Positions 13,066-24,309 of a stretch of 64,000 nucleotides of DNA are shown here, in pieces (the first letter of the stretch is position 1; each line of letters begins with the position of its first letter). Under the pieces are notes generated by a model. It saw nothing but the letters and a program-made list of their open reading frames with translations, had not been told where the DNA came from and ran no database searches. The position numbers and the translations under genes were made by a program. The stretch covers positions 310,001 to 374,000 of the forward strand of contig BCIN01000001.1 of assembly GCA_039545335.1 (NCBI GenBank), read 5' to 3'. The DNA is from Kondoa subrosea. Taxonomy: Eukaryota.

Positions 13066-14871
13066 CTACGGATCCACCTCTAATACATTGCCGCGAGCCA
13101 GTCCCTCGCCCGTCCATTGCCAAGCTTGAAACTTGTGATTCAATCCTTTATCTTCGTGCACTTGGTACACGCTTCCCAAACCGCCAGCATGAGGACTCTT
13201 GCGTAGGTAGTATACCACTGCGATTCTTGAATGCAAGAGTGACATCGAACACATCAAACAAGGTTCATGCGTCGTGAAAAGACTCAATCCAGATAGCAGG
13301 TAGGGAGGAGGTGAACCTTGAACCAGTCGTCCTCCCTTTCGATCAATAGCCGCCACAGCATCAATAACATGAGAAACCGAATGACACAACAGATTGCCAG
13401 TCGATTTCCTTCGATCCACAGCTTCCGCTAATGGTGGACCTAAGACAGAAGAAGCGACCATAGACGCTATTGGCAATTCCCCTGCTTGGCTTGCTGCTTC
13501 GTTGGCTAATCTCTCCACTCTCTTGAGCATCGTTCGGACCCAATCAAGGTGTTCTCTCTTCCAACCCTTTGATAGTATTTCTGCTGATCCACCTATCCGA
13601 ATGGGTACAAAGATTGCAGGCCAGATTGCTGCGAACTCGGCAATTTGCTCTCGAGTGACTGCTGGTCGGGTGGGAACTGGAACTTGATAAGGAGGAACAA
13701 CAACATTGTCATGTATTTGAAGGAGCTCGAGAAGAGAGTCTGGGATTGGTGGATCAGTAGGATGGACGAGAACAGATATTCGGTCGGTGGATTGACGTTT
13801 GATTCGCTTCAAGTGTTGCATTGGCGATGGAGGAATTCCTGCATCTCGAAGAATTCTGTGAAATGGATTAGCATAAATGATAGCGACTTAATGTATACGT
13901 ACTCGAATATCACAGGAGCATGCTTGGCCTGTATATCAACTACCCAAGCAGTAGCTGTGAATACGATTCAGCACAGGTCAGACGAATCTATTGTGCGATG
14001 CAGCGGACTCACTCGTCTCCAGCGGTAAATCAGCGAGACATATCTCGTCCGTCACTCGATGACAGGGTAGGTCTCGAAACAGAATCATCTCTTCGGGATC
14101 CGCACACTCTTGAACCTCTCTACACCTTCGATCTTCTTCCTCTATCGAACTTGACAGATCCTCTGAGCCTATCAGACCGTTCACAGCCGATATCGCTTCC
14201 CAGCCATCGAGCGTCTCTTCTTCCTCGCTCTCATCCGGCTCGCCATATCTTGCATGAGGACCGTAGTAGATGCAAAGCTCTTCTCCAGCAACCACATCCT
14301 TGCAAAGTGTATATCGAATTGTCTGAGTTGGCTTATCCAATTGAAAAGAAACGTTTGGAAATTTAGCATGATTGAACATGGAACCTTTTTCAGAAACAGA
14401 ATAGTAAGAGTCAGTCACCGTCCTCTTGTCTTGTTTTTGTATTATCGAGGATCTTGTATCGCATCGATTACACTTGCCTGTTCCTAATGCCAATGCCATT
14501 GTCTTTGGCCTGTTCCATACAAAGACGTAGTCCTTCAAGATTGACTCGCTCACTCCTCCTCCTGCGCTTGTAGACTTGCTGTACTCTTCTGGTGGAATGA
14601 CTAGAACTGGAGAGACGTCCAACAGTGTACCTCTTGGCAAGTCTTGAGTAGCAAAGACCCCACGACCTTTGCCATCTGGTGTGTTCAAGATCCGAAAATT
14701 TGGATTCAAGATGCGAGGTGTTTCGTCTGGGTAATTGGAGGGAGTAGAGGGTGAAGAGGTTCCAAGTACTCGAAGGACATCTTTGGGCTTGCTGCAGCTC
14801 GCAATCGGCTTGTCTTCTAATGTACAAGCAGACATTCTGTTCGATGCATTTGACTCGAAACAAGCAGCCAT
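13066..14871 (-). CDS. TAD3: SET-domain methyltransferase fused to tRNA adenosine-34 deaminase subunit Tad3
   Basis: SET motifs GKGRGVFAT, GSMFNH, GEELCIYYG. TAD3 motifs HLKRI, CHSV (pseudo-catalytic), HEPCLMCSMSLLHSR, LNHKFQAWQW. Introns 14385-14477, 13955-14012 and 13856-13902 join them in frame. Confidence 0.88.
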
Positions 14872-15385
14872 ATTCGGTCTAAAGGGGATATAACAGAGAA
14901 GAGGTGATTTGTCAGTTGGTATATGCTATCTCAGCCGCATACAACGTGCGGAGTCAATCGTTGCAAGTCAACCAAATAAATTTTTACATAAGAGCGATTC
15001 CGCTCCCTATAAGCCTATTCGCTCTGATCCTGCATCTCGTGTGCATACAAGAGCCATCGCGACACTTCTGCTGGAATGCTGATTTGATCAAGAGTCTCTT
15101 ATGACCTATGACCACTGTTGAATGATGCCAAGTCTAATCTATCAGGAGCTCTGTACAATTTCATCAGTACATGGATAGACTCCGGGAATGCCAATCGACT
15201 TACTATGATGAGTCAGTCTTTGAGGTAGCTCGACATTCAGATTCCCGCAGAATTGCAAAATTAGACTTGACAGCTTCACTTCTGCAATGTCTTCTGATCG
15301 CTTCCCTGACTTGCATTGGTATCTAATTCATTTAGAGGTCAGCTTAGTTCATGGTATCGATTGAAACCCCTCACCAAGCCAAATC

Positions 15386-16197: not shown

Positions 16198-17566
16198 CTC
16201 GTAATCTCCGTGTTCAGTTGGATTGGCTGCAATTGGCCGATTGAGCTACAGCGACTTCGAGAATTGCAGGATAACGAGGTATGATCCAAGAGCCTGCCCT
16301 GAGCTGTGTTCCGAACTTCAGATGGACGCTTGAGGCAAGATAATTCGGCCTCTTTTCTCGCGACGAGCATGACTTCGCCAAAGTTTCTTCTGCTCCTCAA
16401 ATGGACACCTAGAAGGTGACTACGCATCAAGATGAACACAGCATAGGTAAGCGAGCATTTCAGTGTCTGATTCTGCTTTTTTCTTCCGTTCGAGATGTGA
16501 CAAGGGATTCAGAACAGAGCTGCAAGCTCTTGTTGACAACTCCTATAAACTTACAACCAATTGATCCTACTGAAACTTCATCTTCTTCGTCTTATAGATC
16601 AGAGAAAAGTCACTGACTTTCATAAAACCAACAGATTTCGCCGAGATGACAGGCGAGGGACCCTCAATAACCGATGTGCAATATGGAATTCAGTCAGCTT
16701 ACTCGTCGCCTTTGTGTCTCTTCTTCCAGCCGTTTTGTTTGCTATTTTTCCCTTATTGTCATTTCTGTTCGTTTGTCTGTCTATTTGCCTGTCTGCCTGT
16801 TTGTTTGTCTAGATCGATCGTCCCTCTGCCATTTGGTTTGCGCATTTTGAGCTCCCACAGATTGTCAAGCTATGAGCACGCCATGTCCAAGTTGTTGTTT
16901 CTGCATGTGTGATCTGGCTTTCGATGCGTATCATATCAGTCATTAGCCATATTGGGCGCACGTAATACTCTCTGATTGACCTCGCGTGTATTGTACTGCT
17001 CTCAGCGCATCGCTTATTCACGAAAGCGATACAAGTTGACATCTTATCCGCTTCAGCATTCATTGTCGCTCGATTTCTGTCCAAGTTATACTGTGTCGTC
17101 TGGAGTACATATTGTGGCTGTAGTAGACGAATGCTTTAGCGCGAAGGTTGTCCAGGACATTGGGAGTTCACTTTGTTTGAAAGATAGAAGGTTTTCGAGA
17201 CGTAATGACGCTTTCTGCTTACTATGTAGCATATGTGACACGTATATATCTCTGACACAAGGCGCCTGGCTGGTTCAGAAAGCTAAATCAGAGCCGCAAA
17301 ACGATTTAGAAGGTCGAGCGGAACTCCCGAGCGGAAGTGGCAAAACATTCTGATGCACTTTCTGTCGACTATGTAAATGCTACAAAGTACAAAGTAGTAC
17401 CATTCGATGCGTATGCTCAGGCTCTAGCTTCCTATGCGGTGCACAAAGGTTGGCTAAGCCTACAAAGCGAAGAAAAGGCCAAAAACTCAGAACTCGCTCA
17501 AATTACATCGGAATCGTCTGCTAATGGTCCTAGGGCGTCTGCGAACGGCAAAAAGAGAGGTTACGA

Positions 17567-17683
17567 GGCCTCCTAGCGGAATTGAACCACTGATCTTCGG
17601 TTGACGGTAAGAAACTTTTCTCGACGACGAAATCGAGAAAAGAGGCATACAAGACCGACGCCTTACCACTTAGCCAAAGAGGC
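17567..17683 (-). tRNA. tRNA-Thr(TGT) with 45-nt intron (17603-17647)
   Basis: Minus strand reads GCCTCTT TG GCTAAGTGGTAAGGC G TCGGT CT TGT A [intron] A ACCGA AGATC AGTGG TTCAATT CCGCT AGGAGGC C. Cloverleaf stems pair, the intron is at the canonical 37/38 position, and a T-run Pol III terminator follows about 13 nt downstream. Confidence 0.93.
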
Positions 17684-18066
17684 CTTTCAAATCAATGATT
17701 CTGGCAAGCTTCCTAGCTTATTCTGGTTCCAAAAACCAGTAATTTGTCGTGCGTTTTGCGATTTTCCATAGATTTTTCGCGCGTNAGATCGCAAGACATA
17801 GCATATAGATGTCTTCAATCCTATTCTCGCTTGTTCTTGTTCCAGCCTGGTCTATATGTGTGGTGATAGGGTTTAATGCGAATTAAGCTACATCCGCAGA
17901 ATGTGAGAGCGAAGCGAGACGATTGGGAAAAGCGATCGCGTAATTCACTGTCAGGAGAATACTGGCAATAGTCTTGCTTGACAGAGTATGCGAAGGCATA
18001 ACAAGCAGGTGCATAGACATAGCAACAAGCGCTGTTGGCGAAATGGAAGGTGCGATGCTCAACGTA
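17645..18066. repeat. Left arm of ~420-bp inverted repeat (pairs with 21581-22000)
   Basis: Manual alignment to the reverse complement of 21581-22000 shows 3 substitutions, two 1-nt indels and a shared N (17785/21862). Weaker similarity continues inward to ~18165/21488. Confidence 0.97.
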
Positions 18067-18361
18067 CTTGCAGAAGGAGAAGGGAGACTCAAGGTGAGGT
18101 ATGTAAAGCTCTAGCAGTATTATCGGACGAGTAAATAACGGCATCCAGTGGCAGAAGTGGATCAAATTTGCGCATTCTGAAAGCCGATTCCGTTTTTGGT
18201 ACAGACAAGATCACTCAACACAAGAAGACCTCTGGCGCTAGACTCTTTTCACAGGAGAGGCAAGTCCCGACCACGACGGTAGAGGTACATTGCGCTGAGT
18301 GAAAAGAAAACAATAGAGGCATAAATTGTCCGTGAACATATAGCAAGCTTCGATCTAGTGT

Positions 18362-20418
18362 TCAAGCCGAGCGGCGCGGTGTACCAGCAGGAGTTACGGG
18401 ACGAGATCGTAACCCTCCCGGCGTGACAGAACGAGATCCTGTTGATCGAGCACGAGCTGAGCTTCCGTCGTATATGCTCATTTGATCGAATGCCGATGGC
18501 AAGGATGGCGGCGTGCTAAGAGTCTTTTAAGTCAACTCCGTGACATGTAACAAAGGAAACACGTACGCAATACCTGTCAATTCCGTGTTGCAGCGGAGGT
18601 CACCTCTATATCCTCGGTGAACCTGGTTCTCAGCGAAGTGATCGATCTTGGCCCGTAGATCGAGGGACAGTGGAAGTTTCTGACTCAGGCTGGGTCCCCT
18701 CTCATGATTCATGTACGCTGCCAATTCCGCTTGTTTACGCGCTTTCCTTGAGTCGCCGTATTCATCCAACCTGAGCTGCTCGATCTCCTTGAACCAAACC
18801 GGAAGATTAGCTGCAGGTAAAACAGGCGGCAAAGTAGCTCCAGCTGCGCCAGATGGAAGACTAGCTTGGGTGGTGGAAGTCCGGCCATAAGCTAGCAGGA
18901 ACATCTTGTTCTGGGTGTAATTAAAGCTCGCTATCAGCTCCGGCAAGACTCAGCGCGGCCGACGTACTATTGTTTTACTTAGAGTGAAAAGTTCGTCGAT
19001 AGCATCACAAATCTTGCGGACTTGATGCCACAATGAATTCTGAACGATACAACAAGACAGCGGTTGGCAGGGTCCAGAAAGATAGATAGAGACCATACCT
19101 CCGAAGCGAGTTGAGACTGATAGTCGGCGCGCTCTTCGCTCAAGTATTCTTGCTGAACCATGTCCAAATAATGCCTAGCTTGCAAACAATACGAGATAAC
19201 TGCAACATAGTTAGGCTTGTCCGATGAAACGAAGTGAAACCTACTTTCACTGACCTCAGTAGCGAGTTCGCCGCCTGCAAATTTTAGCTGTCGTTGCTCT
19301 TAATGGCATGGAACTCACAAGAGCGTTGGACAGCGTTTGCGATTTGAGCTAGATTGGGACCCTTAAGCTCAGGTACGGCCGCAATCCAGTATAGGCTATA
19401 AGCCACGGCTTCGCTAGCGAGCTGAATTTGCCTGATGATTTTTTTGGCTTGAAATATTTTGTCTGCACGCGCATACGTATGGATCTGGATCTCCGATAAA
19501 AGGTTCTGCATCAGACACTGAGTAGGCGTAACATAAACAAGCTGCCACATACGCGACAATCATCTACTATAGGGTCCTCCATCGCCTTTTTGATGTTCTG
19601 CAATACCGATGAAGCAATCTTGCGTTTCTCCAGATCGCGCCGCTAGATTCAAAGTCAGAATTTATAAGAAGAGGATAGGGAAATGCCAACTTCGACATGT
19701 TGATAATCTGGTAAAGTAGCCCCGGACTGGAAAAGAGTCAAATTCAAGGGGCGACAGTGTAGGCACAAGCGACTTACATGTTTTTCCTCGAAGCTTTTCG
19801 CCAAAACGTCTGGCTTCACACTAGCTTGATCATTTGAACCTTGCTTCTTAGCATTCATGTATTCCATTAGGGCCAGTAGTGGATTATGAGGCTACACAGA
19901 GGCTATCAGTCTTATCGATTGGGCACACAAAGCAGTCGTACAGCTGGCGCATTTGAGTGAATTTTTTGGGCGAATTTCTGCCCGTACTGGTTCAAACGTC
20001 CCTCCATGTTTGTTCCCATTGTGATCGGTATGTGAGTGAGTTCTTCACGGACGCTAGCAATACGATGACCAGCTGCAGAGTCCCAAACACGACGCAAAGC
20101 CGGTGTTGTGAAGGTATTGGGTCCAGCAACATAGGGAGAGGGTGCATTCAAAGACCTGGGCGTTCTGGCGTATCGAGGAATAATGGGAACAGCGAAAGTT
20201 GCATTTCCAGCGGTAGCAGCAGCCATCGGACTCCAGGGAGCAGAGTTTACGCTATGAGCCAGAATCACCGACGGCGAGGGTGATCTGCCTCTAGCTCTCT
20301 TGGTATCAGGTACAGTAAGATGACTGCCTGCTTGCTCTAAGTTGCCAGCATCGGGGTGAGGCGAGGCAGCTGGTCGCTTTGAGCCCTGCATCTGCGAAGG
20401 TTTGGGATTGGTTGCCAT
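18362..20418 (-). CDS. Orphan multi-exon protein (~9 exons, roughly 500 aa) inside the inverted-repeat-bounded segment
   Basis: MATNPKPSQ..NAPA / PHNPLLALMEY..EEKH / SGATLPDYQHVE / RRDLEKRK..DDCR / NLLSEIQ..VQRS / CGELATEVSE / IISYCLQARHY..ASE / NSLWHQVRK..SKTI / NKMFLLAY..TGIA / TPPSLPSAF..PRRSA*. All junctions are GT-AG and in frame. No known motif. Confidence 0.75.
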
Positions 20419-21580
20419 CGCGGTGTTATTTTAGATGACAGAGACGTGAGAGATGATCTATATGGAGGAAGAACAAGATAAGAGTATACGAAGGAAGAAG
20501 AGAGAGAAGAGAGCAGATCGATTCGGGCTAGCGATTTGACAAAGGGGATAGAAGATGCCTTCGAATCCAGCTTGACATCATTGTCAGGTATAAGAGCCTG
20601 TATATCAGGGAGCGAAATGTAGCAGACTAGTTGTCACTTTTCACTTGAAGCATTGACGACAAGCTAACGGGATTCATATGATGTGACAGCGTCGCAGCAT
20701 AAAGACAATAGCTAGACAAAGAGACAATGATCGACGTAGCTGCAGACCAACATAGCTCGAGATTCGGACAGGTGTAATGACCCAGACGAAGAAGCAGAAG
20801 TTGCTCGATTATATCGACAAGGTCGCATGCAAGGCTGTGTTCTTTGCGCTGATATCATTGCACCGGGTATCTAGCGAATTCACACATGTAAAGCTTGCGC
20901 ACGTCGCTGTCCTTCGTCGACGTGATAACTTATTCTGCTTCAACCATCCGCAAAGTTATAGTCTTCAAGGCAGTGCTTGTCAGCTGTAGGCGTCGAGTTT
21001 TGCTGCCAAAGCTTTGCTGACATTGCGGCAATGAAAACCTCTTCAGCTGCTCTATAGAATGCCGTTCATGCTCATACGAATCACGATGCTCGAGAGTTCC
21101 TCTCGCTTCTCGCTTCTCTTCCTGCTGCTGGTCTAGTCTCGGACTCTTGTGATGCCACTCGAGGCATATTGCTTCACCTTGCAGTCGCACCGGCGCGTTC
21201 GCGCTTTCTCAAGTTAAGCTCCTTCATTTTCGACGAGGGTAGTTATGTTAGCCTCATTCAATGGTGTCTGTGTCACGGTCTCTTTATCTACTTTGCCTGA
21301 ATGGGCACACTGTTGTTGCCTACATTTCCGCTTTTTCCGTGTTATGTCGATCTTTATATGTACGCTCATACATACGTGTCTATTGCTCTCAGTCTGAAGC
21401 GAATGTACTCGGCATCGCCAATATAAAGTCAAGTTATCGCTATTTACATGGTTACAATTACGAGCCGTCGTGAACATCGCAAGTCTGACTTGGTCCATCT
21501 CTTCCAGCAGATGCCGGCACTTGCTCGTCTGGTATCACTGCTAGAGCTTTAAATCCTCACCTGCAATTTCCGCTGGCGGA

Positions 21581-22000
21581 TACGTTGAGCATCGCATCTT
21601 CCATTTCGCCAAAAGCGCTTGTTGCTATGTCTATGCACCTGCTTGTTATGCCTTCGCATACTCTGTCAAGCAAGACTATTGCCAGTATTCTCCTGACAGT
21701 GAATTACGCGATCGCTTTTCCCAATCGTCTCGCTTCGCTCTCACATTCTGCGGATGTAGCTTAATTCGCATTAAACCCTATCACCACACATATAGACCAG
21801 GCTGGAACAAGAACAAGCGAGAATAGGATTGAAGACATCTATATGCTATGTCTTGCGATCTNACGCGCGAAAAATCTATGGAAAATCGCAAAACGCACGA
21901 CAAATTACTGGTTTTTGGAACCAGGATAAGCTAGGAAGCTTGCCAGAATCATTGATTTGAAGGCCTCTTTGGCTAAGTGGTAAGGCGTGGTCTTGTATGC
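21581..22000. repeat. Right arm of the inverted repeat
   Basis: Reverse complement of 17645-18066. Confidence 0.97.
21963..22000 (+). pseudogene. Truncated tRNA-Thr 5' half (acceptor 5' strand, D arm, anticodon)
   Basis: GCCTCTTTGGCTAAGTGGTAAGGCGT-GGTCTTGTATGC equals tRNA positions 1-37 plus 3 intron nt, with one C missing in the anticodon stem. No T arm or B box follows. Confidence 0.85.
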
Positions 22001-23397
22001 GTCGTCTTCCTGCATTCTGCGTGATTGTGTCTGATATTCCTTTACTTCTGTGGTTGTCGTATCGCTTAGAATTGATCTGAGTGAATTGTCCAGAGCTCTA
22101 ATTGGAAGGATACTCTAGACAAGCGTTCTCGATTCACCAATGGCGCGCTACCTGTCAGTTGCTTCACACCGATCTGTCCTCAGACCATGCTTTCATGCTT
22201 TTCTAAGTCATCTCTTTCACTGAGTCGCCTGTGCAGTCCTTGAAATGAGCTAACCTTATCAGAGGCCGATAGTACTGGCCATTTAGCAGCTCTCTCCCTT
22301 TCTCACGCAAAAAAAACTTGTGAAAGCAGGCTTGAACGTACAACCCAAAAAATTTCGGAGCACTTGCGTGCGGAAAGATTGGGACAATCGACTTCAGAGG
22401 TCTTGACATGGTTATCCTTAGTAAAAGGCGAAGAATAAGTTCAAGATATCTTGACCTCGTCGATGATGGAAGAGAACTCGTCCCGTTGTGCGTATACACA
22501 CTGTCAATGCAAGTTCTGTAGGATTTACTTTCTATCTCGACTTGGTCCATGGACAATCTGATCAATTTGCAATCATCCATCGTCTCATGCTTGGATTCAG
22601 GTGTGCCTCAATGACGTGACTGCGAATACGAAATTGCAGGTAAATATTCTAACAGCTATATCCTGTATCCAATGCAGTCCTCCCTGAGCCTTAACCCTAG
22701 CTGCAACCCAGCATCAGGACAAACTGAAGTGACATAATCGCTGTGTAGTCAGAGGTAGCGGATGAGTATTGCGTGAGCTTCGGATGTACGGCTAGATCTG
22801 CGAGAAGGAAGAGCAATCCTGTTTCATAAATGCCACATGCAGAAAGACAAGGAAGAACAATACGCGAAAGCAGAAGAGAAGGGAGGGAAGAGAGAGACAA
22901 AATTCGCGCAAGGCGGAGCTCGTACGGTACCATGCAAAAGACCAGAAGCAACATTCACGGCGTATTTTGCATATGCTGCGATCTATACAGTGCAACAGGT
23001 GACTACCTGTGCCGTCCGAATGCTACTGGCTCCACCAGTCAGAATCTAACAATCAATAAGATAAATCAGCTGTCATCGGGCCGGCGACTAACTTCCGCTT
23101 CCTCTAAATCTGAGCATCGATGCTTGGCTGCTACGAATCTGAAATCTTGCGTACCACGACTTTCTGCAAACCACCAAGATCAATGCAATCTTTACGCAGC
23201 ACATGCAAGGACTTACATACCTGCATAAGCAATTTTCGTGTAATGCAACGGATGTTGAGATACTCGCGCTGATCCACTTGCGGTCACGTAAGCATACAGA
23301 ACTACATTGATAAGTGTCAGCACAATGGCTTGAAGCATGTATTTGCAAGCTAACCTGAAATCCATGATAGTCGTTTTCGCTTGCCTTTTACTATTCA

Positions 23398-23997
23398 TCA
23401 ACTTTCAAAGCTCAACAACCCTTTCTGCCTCTTCTTTTCCTTTTTCTTCTCTTTCGGCGTAGCTTTAGCCTTTTTCGCTTGATTAGGTTTCGTTTCCCCT
23501 TCTGCTACTTCATCAGGTTCTTCTCCCTCAGTAATGATGATTTTCCTCTTTGGTTTTCTTGAAGCACCATTCACTCCAGCAATAGTAGTATTAGGTTGAT
23601 CGACTTGTTTGCCTTTACTTGATTCCGCTAAATTCGGTTCAACTTTCACTTCCTCTTTCATTTCTGTTGATTCTGGTTCCCCATCTTTCACTAAATACTC
23701 CCATCATCAATATGTCATATATACCATGTTAATACAGAGCTCACATCGCTTGACTTGTTCTAAAGTCAGATCCCTTTTCTTAATTTGTACAACTAAAGGT
23801 GCTTCATCCCCTTCTTCCTCAGAATCAGGATCAACATAATCATCATCTTCAGGTCTAGTAGGTATTGGTTCCCTTCCACTCCCATTTCCATTCGCATCAG
23901 ATCCTCCTGGTATACGACCTGATAACATTTGGGAAATGAATTTAGGTTGTGAAGGTTTGGAATAGGACATGTTCTTGTATTGATGAGAGCCTGACAT
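23398..23997 (-). CDS. Small low-complexity protein, DUF4604-like
   Basis: KNMSYSKPSQPKFISQM start, DEAPLVVQIKKRDLTLEQ, and Lys-rich end KKRQKGLLSFES*. Confidence 0.7.
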
Positions 23998-24309
23998 GGT
24001 GTTTGAATGTGTAGAGGTATATGAGTGATCGGCAGAGAAAAGAGATGACGGTTTGTGGAAGAGAAAGCGAAAGTCGAAATTGGAGCGTGCTGGTAGTGTG
24101 CGAATTGCTAGCTGCATTATTCGCACGATAGTTATTACAATGGGCAATCGTATTCAACGTCTGATTCGCTTCTTCGACCGGAATGCCAATACCGCATGAG
24201 ACCTGTTCACTAAGACCTGCTTCTCCCCTCATGATCAGCCGAGTCTCTTCAATCTCCCTAATATACTGTATATGACCAGAGATCTTCCCTGCTAAAGATG
24301 TACTTGATG

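What the first reader, a model, noticed from the sequence alone, without database searches (positions are those of the whole stretch)
17645..22000. tRNA-anchored 4.36-kb cassette bounded by ~420-bp near-perfect inverted repeats: candidate invertible switch or novel mobile unit
Seen in sequence: 17645-18066 and 21581-22000 are reverse complements. There are only ~5 differences, all near the arm edges, around an identical ~310-bp core. The outer end of each arm is the 5' half of tRNA-Thr(TGT), ending 3 nt into the tRNA intron. The left arm continues into an intact tRNA; the right arm is a dead half-tRNA pointing outward. No target-site duplication and no transposase or tyrosine-recombinase motif is visible. 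The segment sits in a ~7-kb gap (16.2-23.4 kb) in an otherwise tightly packed housekeeping region. Established knowledge: IR-flanked flip/flop segments drive mating-type switching in Ogataea/Komagataella, and many integrative elements duplicate part of a tRNA, though normally as direct repeats. Inference: a crossover within the arms would invert the ~3.5-kb interior and its orphan gene while leaving the tRNA intact. This could be a regulated inversion, a tRNA-targeted element, or a fold-back duplication.
Basis: partly seen in the sequence, partly recalled or inferred. Interest (0 to 1): 0.85.

Follow-up and report, generated by a model that had tools for sequence, protein, structure and literature searches.

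The report
Inverted duplication anchored in tRNA gene
A fungus-like genome carries a real two-copy inverted duplication of half a threonine tRNA gene plus its upstream DNA around one lineage-specific gene, most likely a scar of an old small inversion and not a switch or a mobile element.

Summary
Arms 17645-18066 and 21581-22000 are reverse complements with 5 differences and a 311-bp identical core. The left arm's outer end is the 5' exon of an intact, intron-bearing tRNA-Thr(UGU). The right arm ends in a dead half-tRNA. New points follow. The repeat continues inward for about 100 bp at 72.5% identity, while the outer edge is sharp. k=31 contigs from two runs of one sample, possibly the assembly's own source, show the core at about 2x depth. 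They show both flanks and a 3640-nt interior contig at 1x. So the repeat is real in the reads and has just two copies. The same contigs cannot show which way the interior points. The interior holds one multi-exon gene, modelled at 504 codons, with no detectable relatives. No transposase, recombinase, MAT gene or target-site duplication was found. Best reading: a one-off inverted segmental duplication, probably the footprint of a small inversion with a staggered break inside the tRNA gene. Its centre is kept identical by arm-to-arm gene conversion. Occasional flipping is plausible. A regulated switch and a mobile element are unsupported. Interest is modest.

The parts
17565..17684 (-). Intact tRNA-Thr(UGU) gene with a 45-nt intron (about 17602-17646). 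The 5' exon, about 17647-17684, lies inside the left arm. A B-box-like site sits at 17578-17588.
   Evidence: Rfam RF00005 scores 49.2 bits against a gathering score of 29. ARAGORN -i calls tRNA-Thr(tgt), intron (39,45). B-box match with 1 mismatch (the consensus is recalled).
17645..18066 (.). Left arm of the inverted repeat (422 nt): the first 2 nt of the tRNA intron, the 5' exon and about 380 bp upstream of the tRNA.
17723..18033 (.). The 311-nt core, 100% identical between the arms (mirror 21614-21924). It holds the N at 17785.
   Evidence: A separate contig at about 2x depth in both runs.
18067..18165 (.). Decayed inner extension of the left arm, 72.5% identical to 21490-21580 with small indels.
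   Evidence: (I2)
18362..20418 (-). Interior gene. The model has 7 exons and 6 GT..AG introns (50-140 nt) and gives 504 codons. The N-terminus is rich in A, P and S. No relative was detected. Boundaries of the middle exons are uncertain.
   Evidence: Splice-aware dynamic programme (0 of 30 shuffles exceed 87 aa). In-frame codon-usage score is positive in 6 of 7 segments. No Pfam hit. No homologues.
20419..21489 (.). About 1.07 kb of unassigned DNA upstream of the interior gene. I take it to be its promoter and 5' region. No ORF has a family hit.
   Evidence: the promoter role is inferred
21490..21580 (.). Decayed inner extension of the right arm.
21581..22000 (.). Right arm of the inverted repeat (420 nt). 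It holds the N at 21862.
21962..21998 (+). Dead half-tRNA: a copy of the 5' exon with a 1-nt deletion in the anticodon stem. The rest of the intron and the 3' exon are missing. No B-box-like site lies downstream.
   Evidence: One search finds no B-box match within 1 mismatch between 17589 and 29210. Rfam finds no second tRNA.

Best explanation
This is a genuine, single-locus, two-copy inverted segmental duplication. About 520 bp was duplicated: the 5' exon of a tRNA-Thr(UGU) gene, 2 nt of its intron and the DNA upstream of it. The two copies lie in inverted orientation on either side of a 3.3-3.5 kb segment. That segment carries one lineage-restricted multi-exon gene with its own upstream region. 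The most likely origin is a small inversion whose left break was staggered, with one nick at the tRNA exon/intron junction and the other about 520 bp away. Fill-in of the overhangs and end joining then leave the stretch between the nicks duplicated, inverted, at both ends of the inverted segment. This produces no target-site duplication and needs no enzyme encoded by the segment. The event is old, because the inner about 100 bp has drifted to about 72% identity. The outer 422 bp, and above all the central 311 bp, have been kept identical by arm-to-arm gene conversion. The same exchanges can occasionally resolve as crossovers and flip the interior. Such a flip changes little: the intact tRNA, the gene and its upstream DNA all stay whole, and both ends of the segment keep the same arm sequence. 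The element is therefore a passive recombination substrate, not a regulated switch or a mobile unit. Shown here: the repeat, its copy number, its edges, the tRNA and half-tRNA, and the gene model. Inferred: the inversion origin, the gene conversion and the occasional flipping. The confidence given is for the core statement (real, two-copy, non-mobile, passive substrate with concerted evolution). The staggered-break inversion origin on its own I put at about 0.35-0.4.
For: It is real in the reads. In both runs the left-flank contig ends at 17715 and the right-flank contig starts at 21932. A single 3640-nt contig runs from 18004 to 21643 and carries both inner-edge variants at 1x depth (51.2 and 135). 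The core is its own contig at 96.6 against 51-53.5, and at 299.2 against 135-142.4, which is about 2x. That depth excludes further copies. No other repeat occurs in the 64-kb window. None of 78 ORFs matches a Pfam family, and there is no target-site duplication. The outer edge is sharp and the inner edge decays. The 5 differences avoid a 311-nt central run, with simulated P = 0.007 under uniform placement, as expected for conversion tracts centred in the arms. Ranz et al. 2007 (PMC1885836, passages read) report that 17 of 29 Drosophila inversions carry inverted duplications of non-repetitive breakpoint sequence. The median duplication is 321 bp, the range is 46 bp to about 1.9 kb, and 12 inversions are duplicated from one breakpoint only. 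They explain these by staggered breaks. The present 422-524 bp one-sided duplication fits that description. In yeasts, tRNA genes are about three times over-represented at evolutionary breakpoints and at sites of gene gain (PMC2675101, passages). The 20 Saccharomyces inversions are all reported as flanked by tRNA genes (a second-hand passage in PMC3302566). An orphan gene beside a tRNA at a rearrangement scar matches that pattern.
Against: No relative or second strain could be found. The ancestral single-copy, opposite-orientation state that the inversion model predicts was therefore never seen. An inverted insertion made by a template switch at a fork stalled at the tRNA gene would leave the same picture. 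Gene conversion is inferred from one pair of sequences. The perfect core may be overstated. The two arms carry an N at mirror positions, which suggests a shared consensus. In run X1 the contig set shows only one allele of the known 17722/21925 difference, so contigs can hide differences between the arms. Both runs come from one sample that may be the assembly's own source, so they are not independent of it. The decayed extension could also reflect two separate events rather than one old repeat partly homogenised.
Confidence: 0.6

Rival explanations
1. The inverted partial copy arose without any inversion. A replication fork stalled or broke at the tRNA gene, a template switch or fold-back priming followed, and about 520 bp was copied in inverted orientation 3.5 kb away. 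Everything else, including conversion and passive flipping, is as in the best explanation.
For: The outer break lies inside a tRNA gene. tRNA genes are described as fork-stalling sites and rearrangement hotspots (PMC2675101, passages). Inverted duplications induced by fold-back priming are documented in yeast (PMC10622511, abstract start in the search listing only). The present-day structure is equally compatible.
Against: By my recollection, fold-back events usually give a palindrome with a short spacer, not a 3.5-kb unique interior. No microhomology is visible at the outer junction (beyond 17645/22000 the sequences differ, apart from a 2-of-3 nt match). No outgroup is available to decide.
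Confidence: 0.2
2. The segment is a functional invertible switch of the flip/flop kind. Recombination in the arms is induced or selected. Orientation then changes expression of the interior gene, or of neighbours such as the tRNA or U5 snRNA, through position effects.
For: Near-identical inverted arms flank a gene-bearing segment. The edge-clustered differences imply that the arms do exchange. Flip/flop systems evolved at least 10 times in budding yeasts (PMC6692504, passages). Non-induced flipping of IR-flanked segments occurs in nature in K. phaffii (PMC5010909, passages).
Against: No promoter/gene split lies across an arm. The gene (18362-20418) and 1.07 kb upstream move together, and both ends see the same arm sequence. 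No MAT-type or recombinase domain was found: 0 of 78 ORFs hit a Pfam family. The arms are 0.42 kb, against the 2-2.6 kb IRs quoted for A. rubescens and the K. phaffii outer MAT IR. Neither a telomere nor a recognisable centromere lies next to either arm in the window. Heterogeneity of orientation was not testable.
Confidence: 0.08
3. The segment is a mobile or integrative element with about 420-bp terminal inverted repeats that targets or captured a tRNA gene.
For: Terminal inverted repeats bound a discrete 4.36-kb unit, and one end lies in a tRNA gene. The cargo gene has no relatives.
Against: The core is at 2x depth, so the two arms are the only copies in the genome. No transposase, integrase or reverse-transcriptase domain was found. 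There is no target-site duplication. The duplicated tRNA part is the 5' half in inverted orientation, not a direct repeat of the 3' part as in integrase-mediated insertion (recalled). The 'terminal repeat' is ordinary tRNA-upstream DNA that continues into an intact gene. The cargo gene has host-like introns and codon usage.
Confidence: 0.04
4. The second arm is an assembly artefact, and no second copy exists.
For: The mirror-image N at 17785 and 21862 are the only N in the window. They show that the arm consensus was shared. Assembler-made inverted repeats are documented for other yeast genomes (PMC6692504, passage on DISCOVAR).
Against: Independent k=31 contigs give the core at 2x depth. All four arm/unique junctions lie inside 1x contigs in both runs. 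The interior contig carries different variants at its two ends, 18034/18050 versus 21613/21597. The orientation of the interior could still be arbitrary in the assembly.
Confidence: 0.03
5. The segment is a small inverted-repeat centromere of the K. phaffii, C. tropicalis or S. pombe imr-cc type, lying in a gene-poor gap with a tRNA at its edge.
For: The geometry is an inverted repeat around a central segment of a few kb, in the largest stretch of the window without conserved genes. IR centromeres with polymorphic orientation of the core are known (PMC5010909, passages).
Against: The central segment holds a 504-codon spliced ORF with host codon usage. Its G+C (0.46-0.50) is not lower than the window's. 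The arms are 0.42-0.52 kb against 2 kb or more. There are no CenH3 or transcription data.
Confidence: 0.03

Closest known systems
Inversion-associated inverted duplications from staggered breaks (Drosophila melanogaster group; Ranz et al. 2007, PMC1885836)
   Same: A non-repetitive sequence from one breakpoint is duplicated in inverted orientation at both ends of a segment. The size lies within the reported range (median 321 bp, up to about 1.9 kb). The duplication is one-sided, and one copy is a truncated dead gene fragment. There is no target-site duplication and no element-encoded enzyme.
   Different: The segment is only 3.5 kb and sits in a fungus-like genome. The break lies inside a tRNA gene at the exon/intron junction. 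The copies are far more alike (98.8% over 422 nt, 100% over 311 nt) than the roughly 88% reported for Drosophila, which implies later homogenisation. The inversion itself is unproven because no outgroup is available.
Yeast evolutionary inversions and gene gains next to tRNA genes (Gordon, Byrne & Wolfe 2009, PMC2675101; Saccharomyces inversions as quoted in PMC3302566)
   Same: A small rearrangement (1-30 kb class) has a tRNA gene at its end, and a lineage-specific gene lies beside the tRNA.
   Different: In those cases the flanking repeats are separate tRNA genes. Here the repeat is mostly unique upstream DNA plus half a tRNA, so it is a segmental duplication and not two members of a tRNA family.
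Flip/flop mating-type switching (Ogataea polymorpha, Komagataella phaffii, Ascoidea rubescens; PMC6692504)
   Same: An inverted repeat flanks a chromosomal segment that can invert by homologous recombination in the repeat.
   Different: There are no MAT genes. No silencing centromere or telomere is evident beside one arm. The arms are shorter and the segment much smaller (3.5 kb against 19-138 kb; the 19 kb figure is recalled). Switching has not been shown.
Palindromes kept identical by arm-to-arm gene conversion (mammalian sex-chromosome palindromes; search listings only)
   Same: The arms are near-identical around a unique spacer, and identity is best explained by conversion between the arms.
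   Different: The scale is 0.4 kb against more than 10 kb. The arms carry no gene. Conversion is inferred here from how the differences are placed, not measured.
Inverted-repeat centromeres of K. phaffii (PMC5010909)
   Same: An inverted repeat surrounds a short unique core, and in K. phaffii the orientation of that core varies among isolates through IR recombination.
   Different: The core here is predicted to be coding. The arms are a quarter as long. There is no evidence of CenH3 binding or of a transcription coldspot.

Membership tests
Inversion-associated inverted duplication (staggered-break footprint) | Inverted duplication of otherwise unique sequence at the two ends of one segment | tested here: met
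   (the only repeat in the window); about 2x depth means two copies genome-wide
Inversion-associated inverted duplication (staggered-break footprint) | Duplication size within the described range (46 bp to about 1.9 kb), with no target-site duplication and no transposable-element sequence | tested here: met
   422 nt, or 524 columns with the decayed part; range from PMC1885836; 0 of 78 ORFs have a Pfam hit
Inversion-associated inverted duplication (staggered-break footprint) | An outgroup shows a single copy and the opposite orientation of the segment | not testable with these tools
   No whole genome is held. No relatives in metagenome contigs. The only runs are from the same sample.
Flip/flop mating-type switch | Inverted repeat flanking the invertible region | tested here: met
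Flip/flop mating-type switch | MAT genes (HMG, alpha-box or homeodomain) at the ends of the region | tested here: not met
   0 of 78 ORFs of 35 aa or more in 17600-22050 match any Pfam family at E<=0.01. The single gene inside has no known domain.
Flip/flop mating-type switch | One arm lies beside a silencing centromere or telomere | tested here: inconclusive
   Both arms lie at least 17 kb from the window ends among ordinary genes. A centromere cannot be recognised from sequence here.
Flip/flop mating-type switch | Both orientations found among cells or strains | not testable with these tools
   k=31 contigs break at the arms, and no joints are reported
TIR transposon or tRNA-targeting integrative element | Transposase, integrase or recombinase encoded, or supplied by other copies | tested here: not met
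   (0 of 78); the core is at 2x depth, so there are no other copies
TIR transposon or tRNA-targeting integrative element | Target-site duplication, or a direct repeat of the tRNA 3' part at the ends | tested here: not met
   The flanks outside 17645 and 22000 differ. The duplicated part is the 5' half, inverted.
Inverted-repeat centromere (K. phaffii type) | Gene-free, untranscribed core bound by CenH3 | tested here: inconclusive
   Prediction argues against it: a 504-codon spliced ORF with coding codon usage. No RNA or ChIP data exist (one search lists no RNA holder).
tRNA (Rfam RF00005), Thr-UGU | Cloverleaf scoring above the gathering threshold; anticodon; canonical intron position | tested here: met
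   Left copy: 49.2 bits against 29, and ARAGORN Thr(tgt) with the intron at 39. Right copy: not detected as a tRNA.

The most novel reading that the evidence does not exclude
The arms are an active flip/flop. The 3.5-kb segment inverts at appreciable frequency within populations. Orientation then matters, for example by changing whether the lineage-specific gene is read toward the highly transcribed, probably single-copy tRNA-Thr(UGU) gene or toward the U5 snRNA gene. That would make this a non-MAT invertible gene cassette in a eukaryote, anchored in a tRNA gene.
Probability: 0.07. Interest if true: 0.65.

Novelty: new member of a known kind. Interest (0 to 1): 0.3.

Why it matters
If the reading is right, this is a clean small example outside animals of an inversion scar: an inverted duplication of breakpoint sequence with one break inside a tRNA gene, exactly at the exon/intron junction. 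It adds to the evidence that tRNA genes are fragile points and sites of gene gain in fungal genomes. It also shows arms of only about 0.4 kb staying identical by conversion while their edges decay. There is a practical warning too. The orientation of the 3.5-kb interior in this assembly is not supported by anything a short-read graph can see. The locus could reward a cheap orientation PCR. It does not open a long-standing question.

Tried and rejected
- **Whole genome.** None is held for this window. A genome-wide BLAST of the arm was not possible, so contig depth served as the copy-number proxy.
- **Sequencing runs.** Only two runs were listed, both from one sample that may be the source of the assembly, and both kept as contigs. 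No RNA holder is listed. Expression and orientation heterogeneity therefore could not be examined. Read laying reported no joints, no loose ends and no other letters.
- **Relatives of the interior gene, all blank.**
  - Word-indexed search with the 140-aa ORF found none, and with exon 1 none; both used 'longer' lengths only.
  - phmmer against 1.84 billion representatives gave 2 hits. P0001 is a 4728-aa tandem-repeat protein that matches only as repeated 42-residue stretches at E 0.037 each. P0002 has E 2.8e-4 over a 26-residue stretch and was not followed up.
  - The ESM Atlas gave no usable hit for two exons.
  - In metagenome contigs, 599 pattern matches gave 0 confirmed relatives.
- **Arm core in metagenome contigs.** A 26-mer from the core had 0 exact matches.
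- **RNA families.** An Rfam E-value scan of 16200-23400 found nothing beyond the tRNA and U5.
- **Earlier findings of this scan.** Nothing by place, words or sequence.
- **Gene finder.** The first two settings of my script stopped at early stop codons. The 504-codon model needed a looser donor pattern, and its middle exons are uncertain.
- **RNA-mediated origin, considered and dropped.** The idea was a read-through transcript cut at the tRNA 5' splice site and then reverse-transcribed. The copy reaches 2 nt past the splice site, and nothing else supports the idea.
- **Taxon.** It was not determined. A neighbouring SET-domain protein has its best hit at only 47% identity, and the best-scoring relatives are unnamed.

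Full report
**1. The observation.** The inverted repeat is real and sits at the stated place. The repeat finder reports arms 17686-18066 / 21581-21961 (381 nt, 99% complementary). It also reports 17658-17686 / 21960-21988 (29 nt, 100%) and a weaker collinear pair, 18101-18165 / 21490-21554 (65 nt, 75%).

A global alignment and a local alignment with coordinates define the arm as 17645-18066 against 22000-21581. It has five differences:
- single-base indels at 17657 and 17685;
- substitutions at 17722/21925, 18034/21613 and 18050/21597.

The 311 nt from 17723 to 18033 are identical. Self-BLAST of the whole window at E<=1e-8 finds this pair and nothing else (524 columns, 92.6%).

**2. The tRNA.** Rfam finds one tRNA at 17567-17683 on the minus strand (49.2 bits, gathering score 29). 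It also finds a U5 snRNA at 22357-22464 (-). ARAGORN in its default mode finds no tRNA. With introns allowed it calls tRNA-Thr(tgt) c[17565,17684] with a 45-nt intron at position 39.

The arm therefore contains the whole 5' exon and the first 2 nt of the intron, or 5 nt if one mismatch is allowed. The first 26 nt of the 5' exon occur exactly twice in the window.

The right copy has lost one G of the anticodon stem (17657 has no partner). It lacks the rest of the intron and the 3' exon. No B-box-like site lies near it: the only such site in this region is in the intact gene at 17578-17588 (the consensus is recalled). The right copy is a dead fragment.

**3.

(a) The repeat goes on inward in decayed form. 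Positions 18067-18165 align with 21580-21490 at 72.5% identity over 91 aligned columns, with small indels. The local score is 39, against 8.3 +/- 1.3 for 2000 shuffles, none of which reaches it. On the outer side there is no similarity at all: 639 of 2000 shuffles reach the observed score. The repeat thus has a sharp outer edge inside the tRNA gene and an eroded inner edge.

(b) Identity forms a gradient, read from the outer edge inward: 96.2% (78 nt), 100% (311 nt), 93.9% (33 nt), then 72.5%. A difference-free run of 311 nt or more, given five differences placed uniformly in 422 nt, has simulated P = 0.007.

(c) The only two N in the 64-kb window are at 17785 and 21862, exact mirror positions in the arms. 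The assembler probably called both arms from one pool of reads.

**4. Is the second arm an assembly artefact?** No whole genome is held. Two public runs hold 98-99% of the sampled words of 16900-22700. They come from one sample, which may be the source of the assembly, and are kept as k=31 contigs.

Laid on the stretch, both runs show the same graph:
- The left-flank contig ends at 17715, which is 30 nt past the indel at 17685.
- The right-flank contig starts at 21932.
- One 3640-nt contig runs from 18004 to 21643, from 30 nt before the difference at 18034 to 30 nt after its mirror at 21613.
- The core is a separate contig of 348 nt (X1) or 288 nt (X2).

Depths are 53.5, 51.2 and 53.1 for left flank, interior and right flank, against 96.6 for the core in X1. 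In X2 they are 142.4, 135 and 141.5, against 299.2 for the core.

The core is therefore present twice per genome and no more. All four junctions between arm and unique DNA are supported at single-copy depth. This removes the artefact reading and the multi-copy element reading together.

The same graph fits either orientation of the interior, and no joints were reported. So the orientation printed in the assembly, and any mixture of orientations, could not be checked.

One caution applies. X1's core contig carries only one allele of the known 17722/21925 difference. Contigs can therefore hide differences between the arms, and the 100% core is slightly less secure than it looks.

**5. What lies inside.** On the minus strand a start codon at 20418 opens a 159-codon first exon. 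A splice-aware dynamic programme using GT..AG introns of 40-150 nt, a branch-point-like motif and a codon-usage score finds a continuous 504-codon reading frame. It has 7 exons and 6 introns and ends at 18362. With the same programme, 30 shuffles of the sequence gave at most 87 codons. Tighter settings had stopped early, and the middle exons are uncertain.

The codon-usage score was trained on the 15 longest ORFs of the window. It is positive in frame and negative in the other frames for six of seven exon segments. The seventh was scored in a wrong frame.

The gene therefore looks real and native, but it has no detectable relatives:
- no Pfam family at or above its curated cut-off for 16 ORFs in and around the segment;
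- none for all 78 ORFs of 35 aa or more in 17600-22050 at E<=0.01;
- nothing in the word-indexed protein collection for two exons;
- only two hits by phmmer against 1.84 billion representatives; P0001 is a repeat-driven artefact and P0002 is a 26-residue match at E 2.8e-4 that was not followed up;
- no usable Atlas hit and no metagenome locus.

The lineage is poorly sampled. A neighbouring SET-domain protein finds nothing closer than 47% identity. 'Orphan' is therefore weak evidence of novelty.

The gene's stop codon lies 197 bp from the inner end of the decayed repeat. About 1.07 kb of unassigned DNA separates its start codon from the right-hand repeat. The whole transcription unit probably lies inside the segment.

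**6. Mechanism.** Four features describe the structure. Unique sequence from one place is duplicated in inverted orientation at the two ends of a segment. There is no target-site duplication. No enzyme is encoded. One copy is a truncated gene fragment.

This is the published footprint of an inversion formed by staggered breaks. In Drosophila, 17 of 29 inversions carry such duplications. The median is 321 bp, the maximum about 1.9 kb, and 12 are duplicated from one breakpoint only (PMC1885836, passages read). Applied here, one nick fell at the tRNA exon/intron junction and the other about 520 bp upstream of it.

That a tRNA gene is the break site fits what is reported in yeasts. tRNA genes are about threefold enriched at evolutionary breakpoints and at sites of gene gain, with fork stalling among the proposed causes (PMC2675101, passages). 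All 20 inversions among Saccharomyces species are reported as flanked by tRNA genes (second-hand passage in PMC3302566).

The identity gradient then says the event is old and that the arms have since exchanged sequence by gene conversion. Large palindromes are said to behave this way (search listings only). Conversion between inverted repeats can resolve as a crossover, so occasional flipping is plausible. K. phaffii shows such non-induced flipping at its centromeric and inner MAT repeats (PMC5010909, passages).

I put about 0.6 on the core statement: real, two-copy, non-mobile, a passive recombination substrate with concerted evolution. Within that, the staggered-break inversion is somewhat more likely than a replication template switch.

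**7. Why not a switch, a mobile element or a centromere?**

A switch needs something that differs between the two states. Here the gene and its upstream DNA move together and both ends keep the same arm sequence. No MAT-type gene is present. Nothing marks either arm as lying next to silencing chromatin. Flip/flop MAT systems are defined by MAT genes at the ends and by a silencing centromere or telomere beside one repeat (PMC6692504, passages).

A mobile element is contradicted by four points: the copy number, the lack of any enzyme domain, the lack of a target-site duplication, and the fact that the 'terminal repeat' is ordinary tRNA-upstream DNA.

A K. phaffii-like centromere is geometrically possible. 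It is contradicted by the predicted coding core and by its G+C of 0.46-0.50, which is not lower than the rest of the window.

**8. Verdict.** The exciting interpretations are not supported, although heterogeneity of orientation remains untested. This is a new example of a known kind of rearrangement scar. It has two uncommon details: a break exactly at a tRNA exon/intron junction, and 0.4-kb arms kept identical around an orphan gene. Interest is 0.3.

Noticed in passing
window 17785 and 21862: These are the only two N in the 64-kb window, and they sit at exact mirror positions in the two arms. Contigs of both runs pass through these sites without a reported alternative letter. The base and the reason for the N remain unknown.
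   Followed up: partly
window 22357-22464 (-): A U5 spliceosomal snRNA gene (Rfam 56.5 bits, gathering score 40) lies 357 bp outside the right arm. The tRNA, the dead half-tRNA and U5 are thus clustered within 5 kb.
   Followed up: no
window 17565-17684: The left-flank contig passes through the whole tRNA-Thr(UGU) gene without a break in both runs. This suggests that no other locus shares its exon 31-mers, so this may be the only gene for this tRNA in the genome.
   Followed up: no
window 13066-14925 (-): A SET-domain ORF (13978-14925) and a cytidine/dCMP-deaminase-domain ORF (13066-13887) lie next to each other on the same strand. One database relative (P0011, 514 aa) carries both domains, and another SET-only relative is named 'tRNA-specific adenosine deaminase 3' by its source. 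They may be one gene here.
   Followed up: no
window 17310-17573 (+): An 88-codon ORF has the second-highest codon-usage score in 16200-23450 and runs into the 3' end of the tRNA gene. It has no Pfam hit. An ORF overlapping the U5 snRNA scores similarly, so this may be chance.
   Followed up: partly
window 21489-21761 (+) and 17886-18110 (-): An ORF runs outward through each arm (91 and 75 codons, identical over the shared part). It has a moderately positive codon-usage score and no family hit.
   Followed up: partly
window 23398-24153 (-): Two adjacent ORFs match the two halves of Pfam DUF4604 (E 2.9e-08 and 1.9e-06). They are probably one intron-split gene bounding the gene-poor interval on the right.
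   Followed up: no
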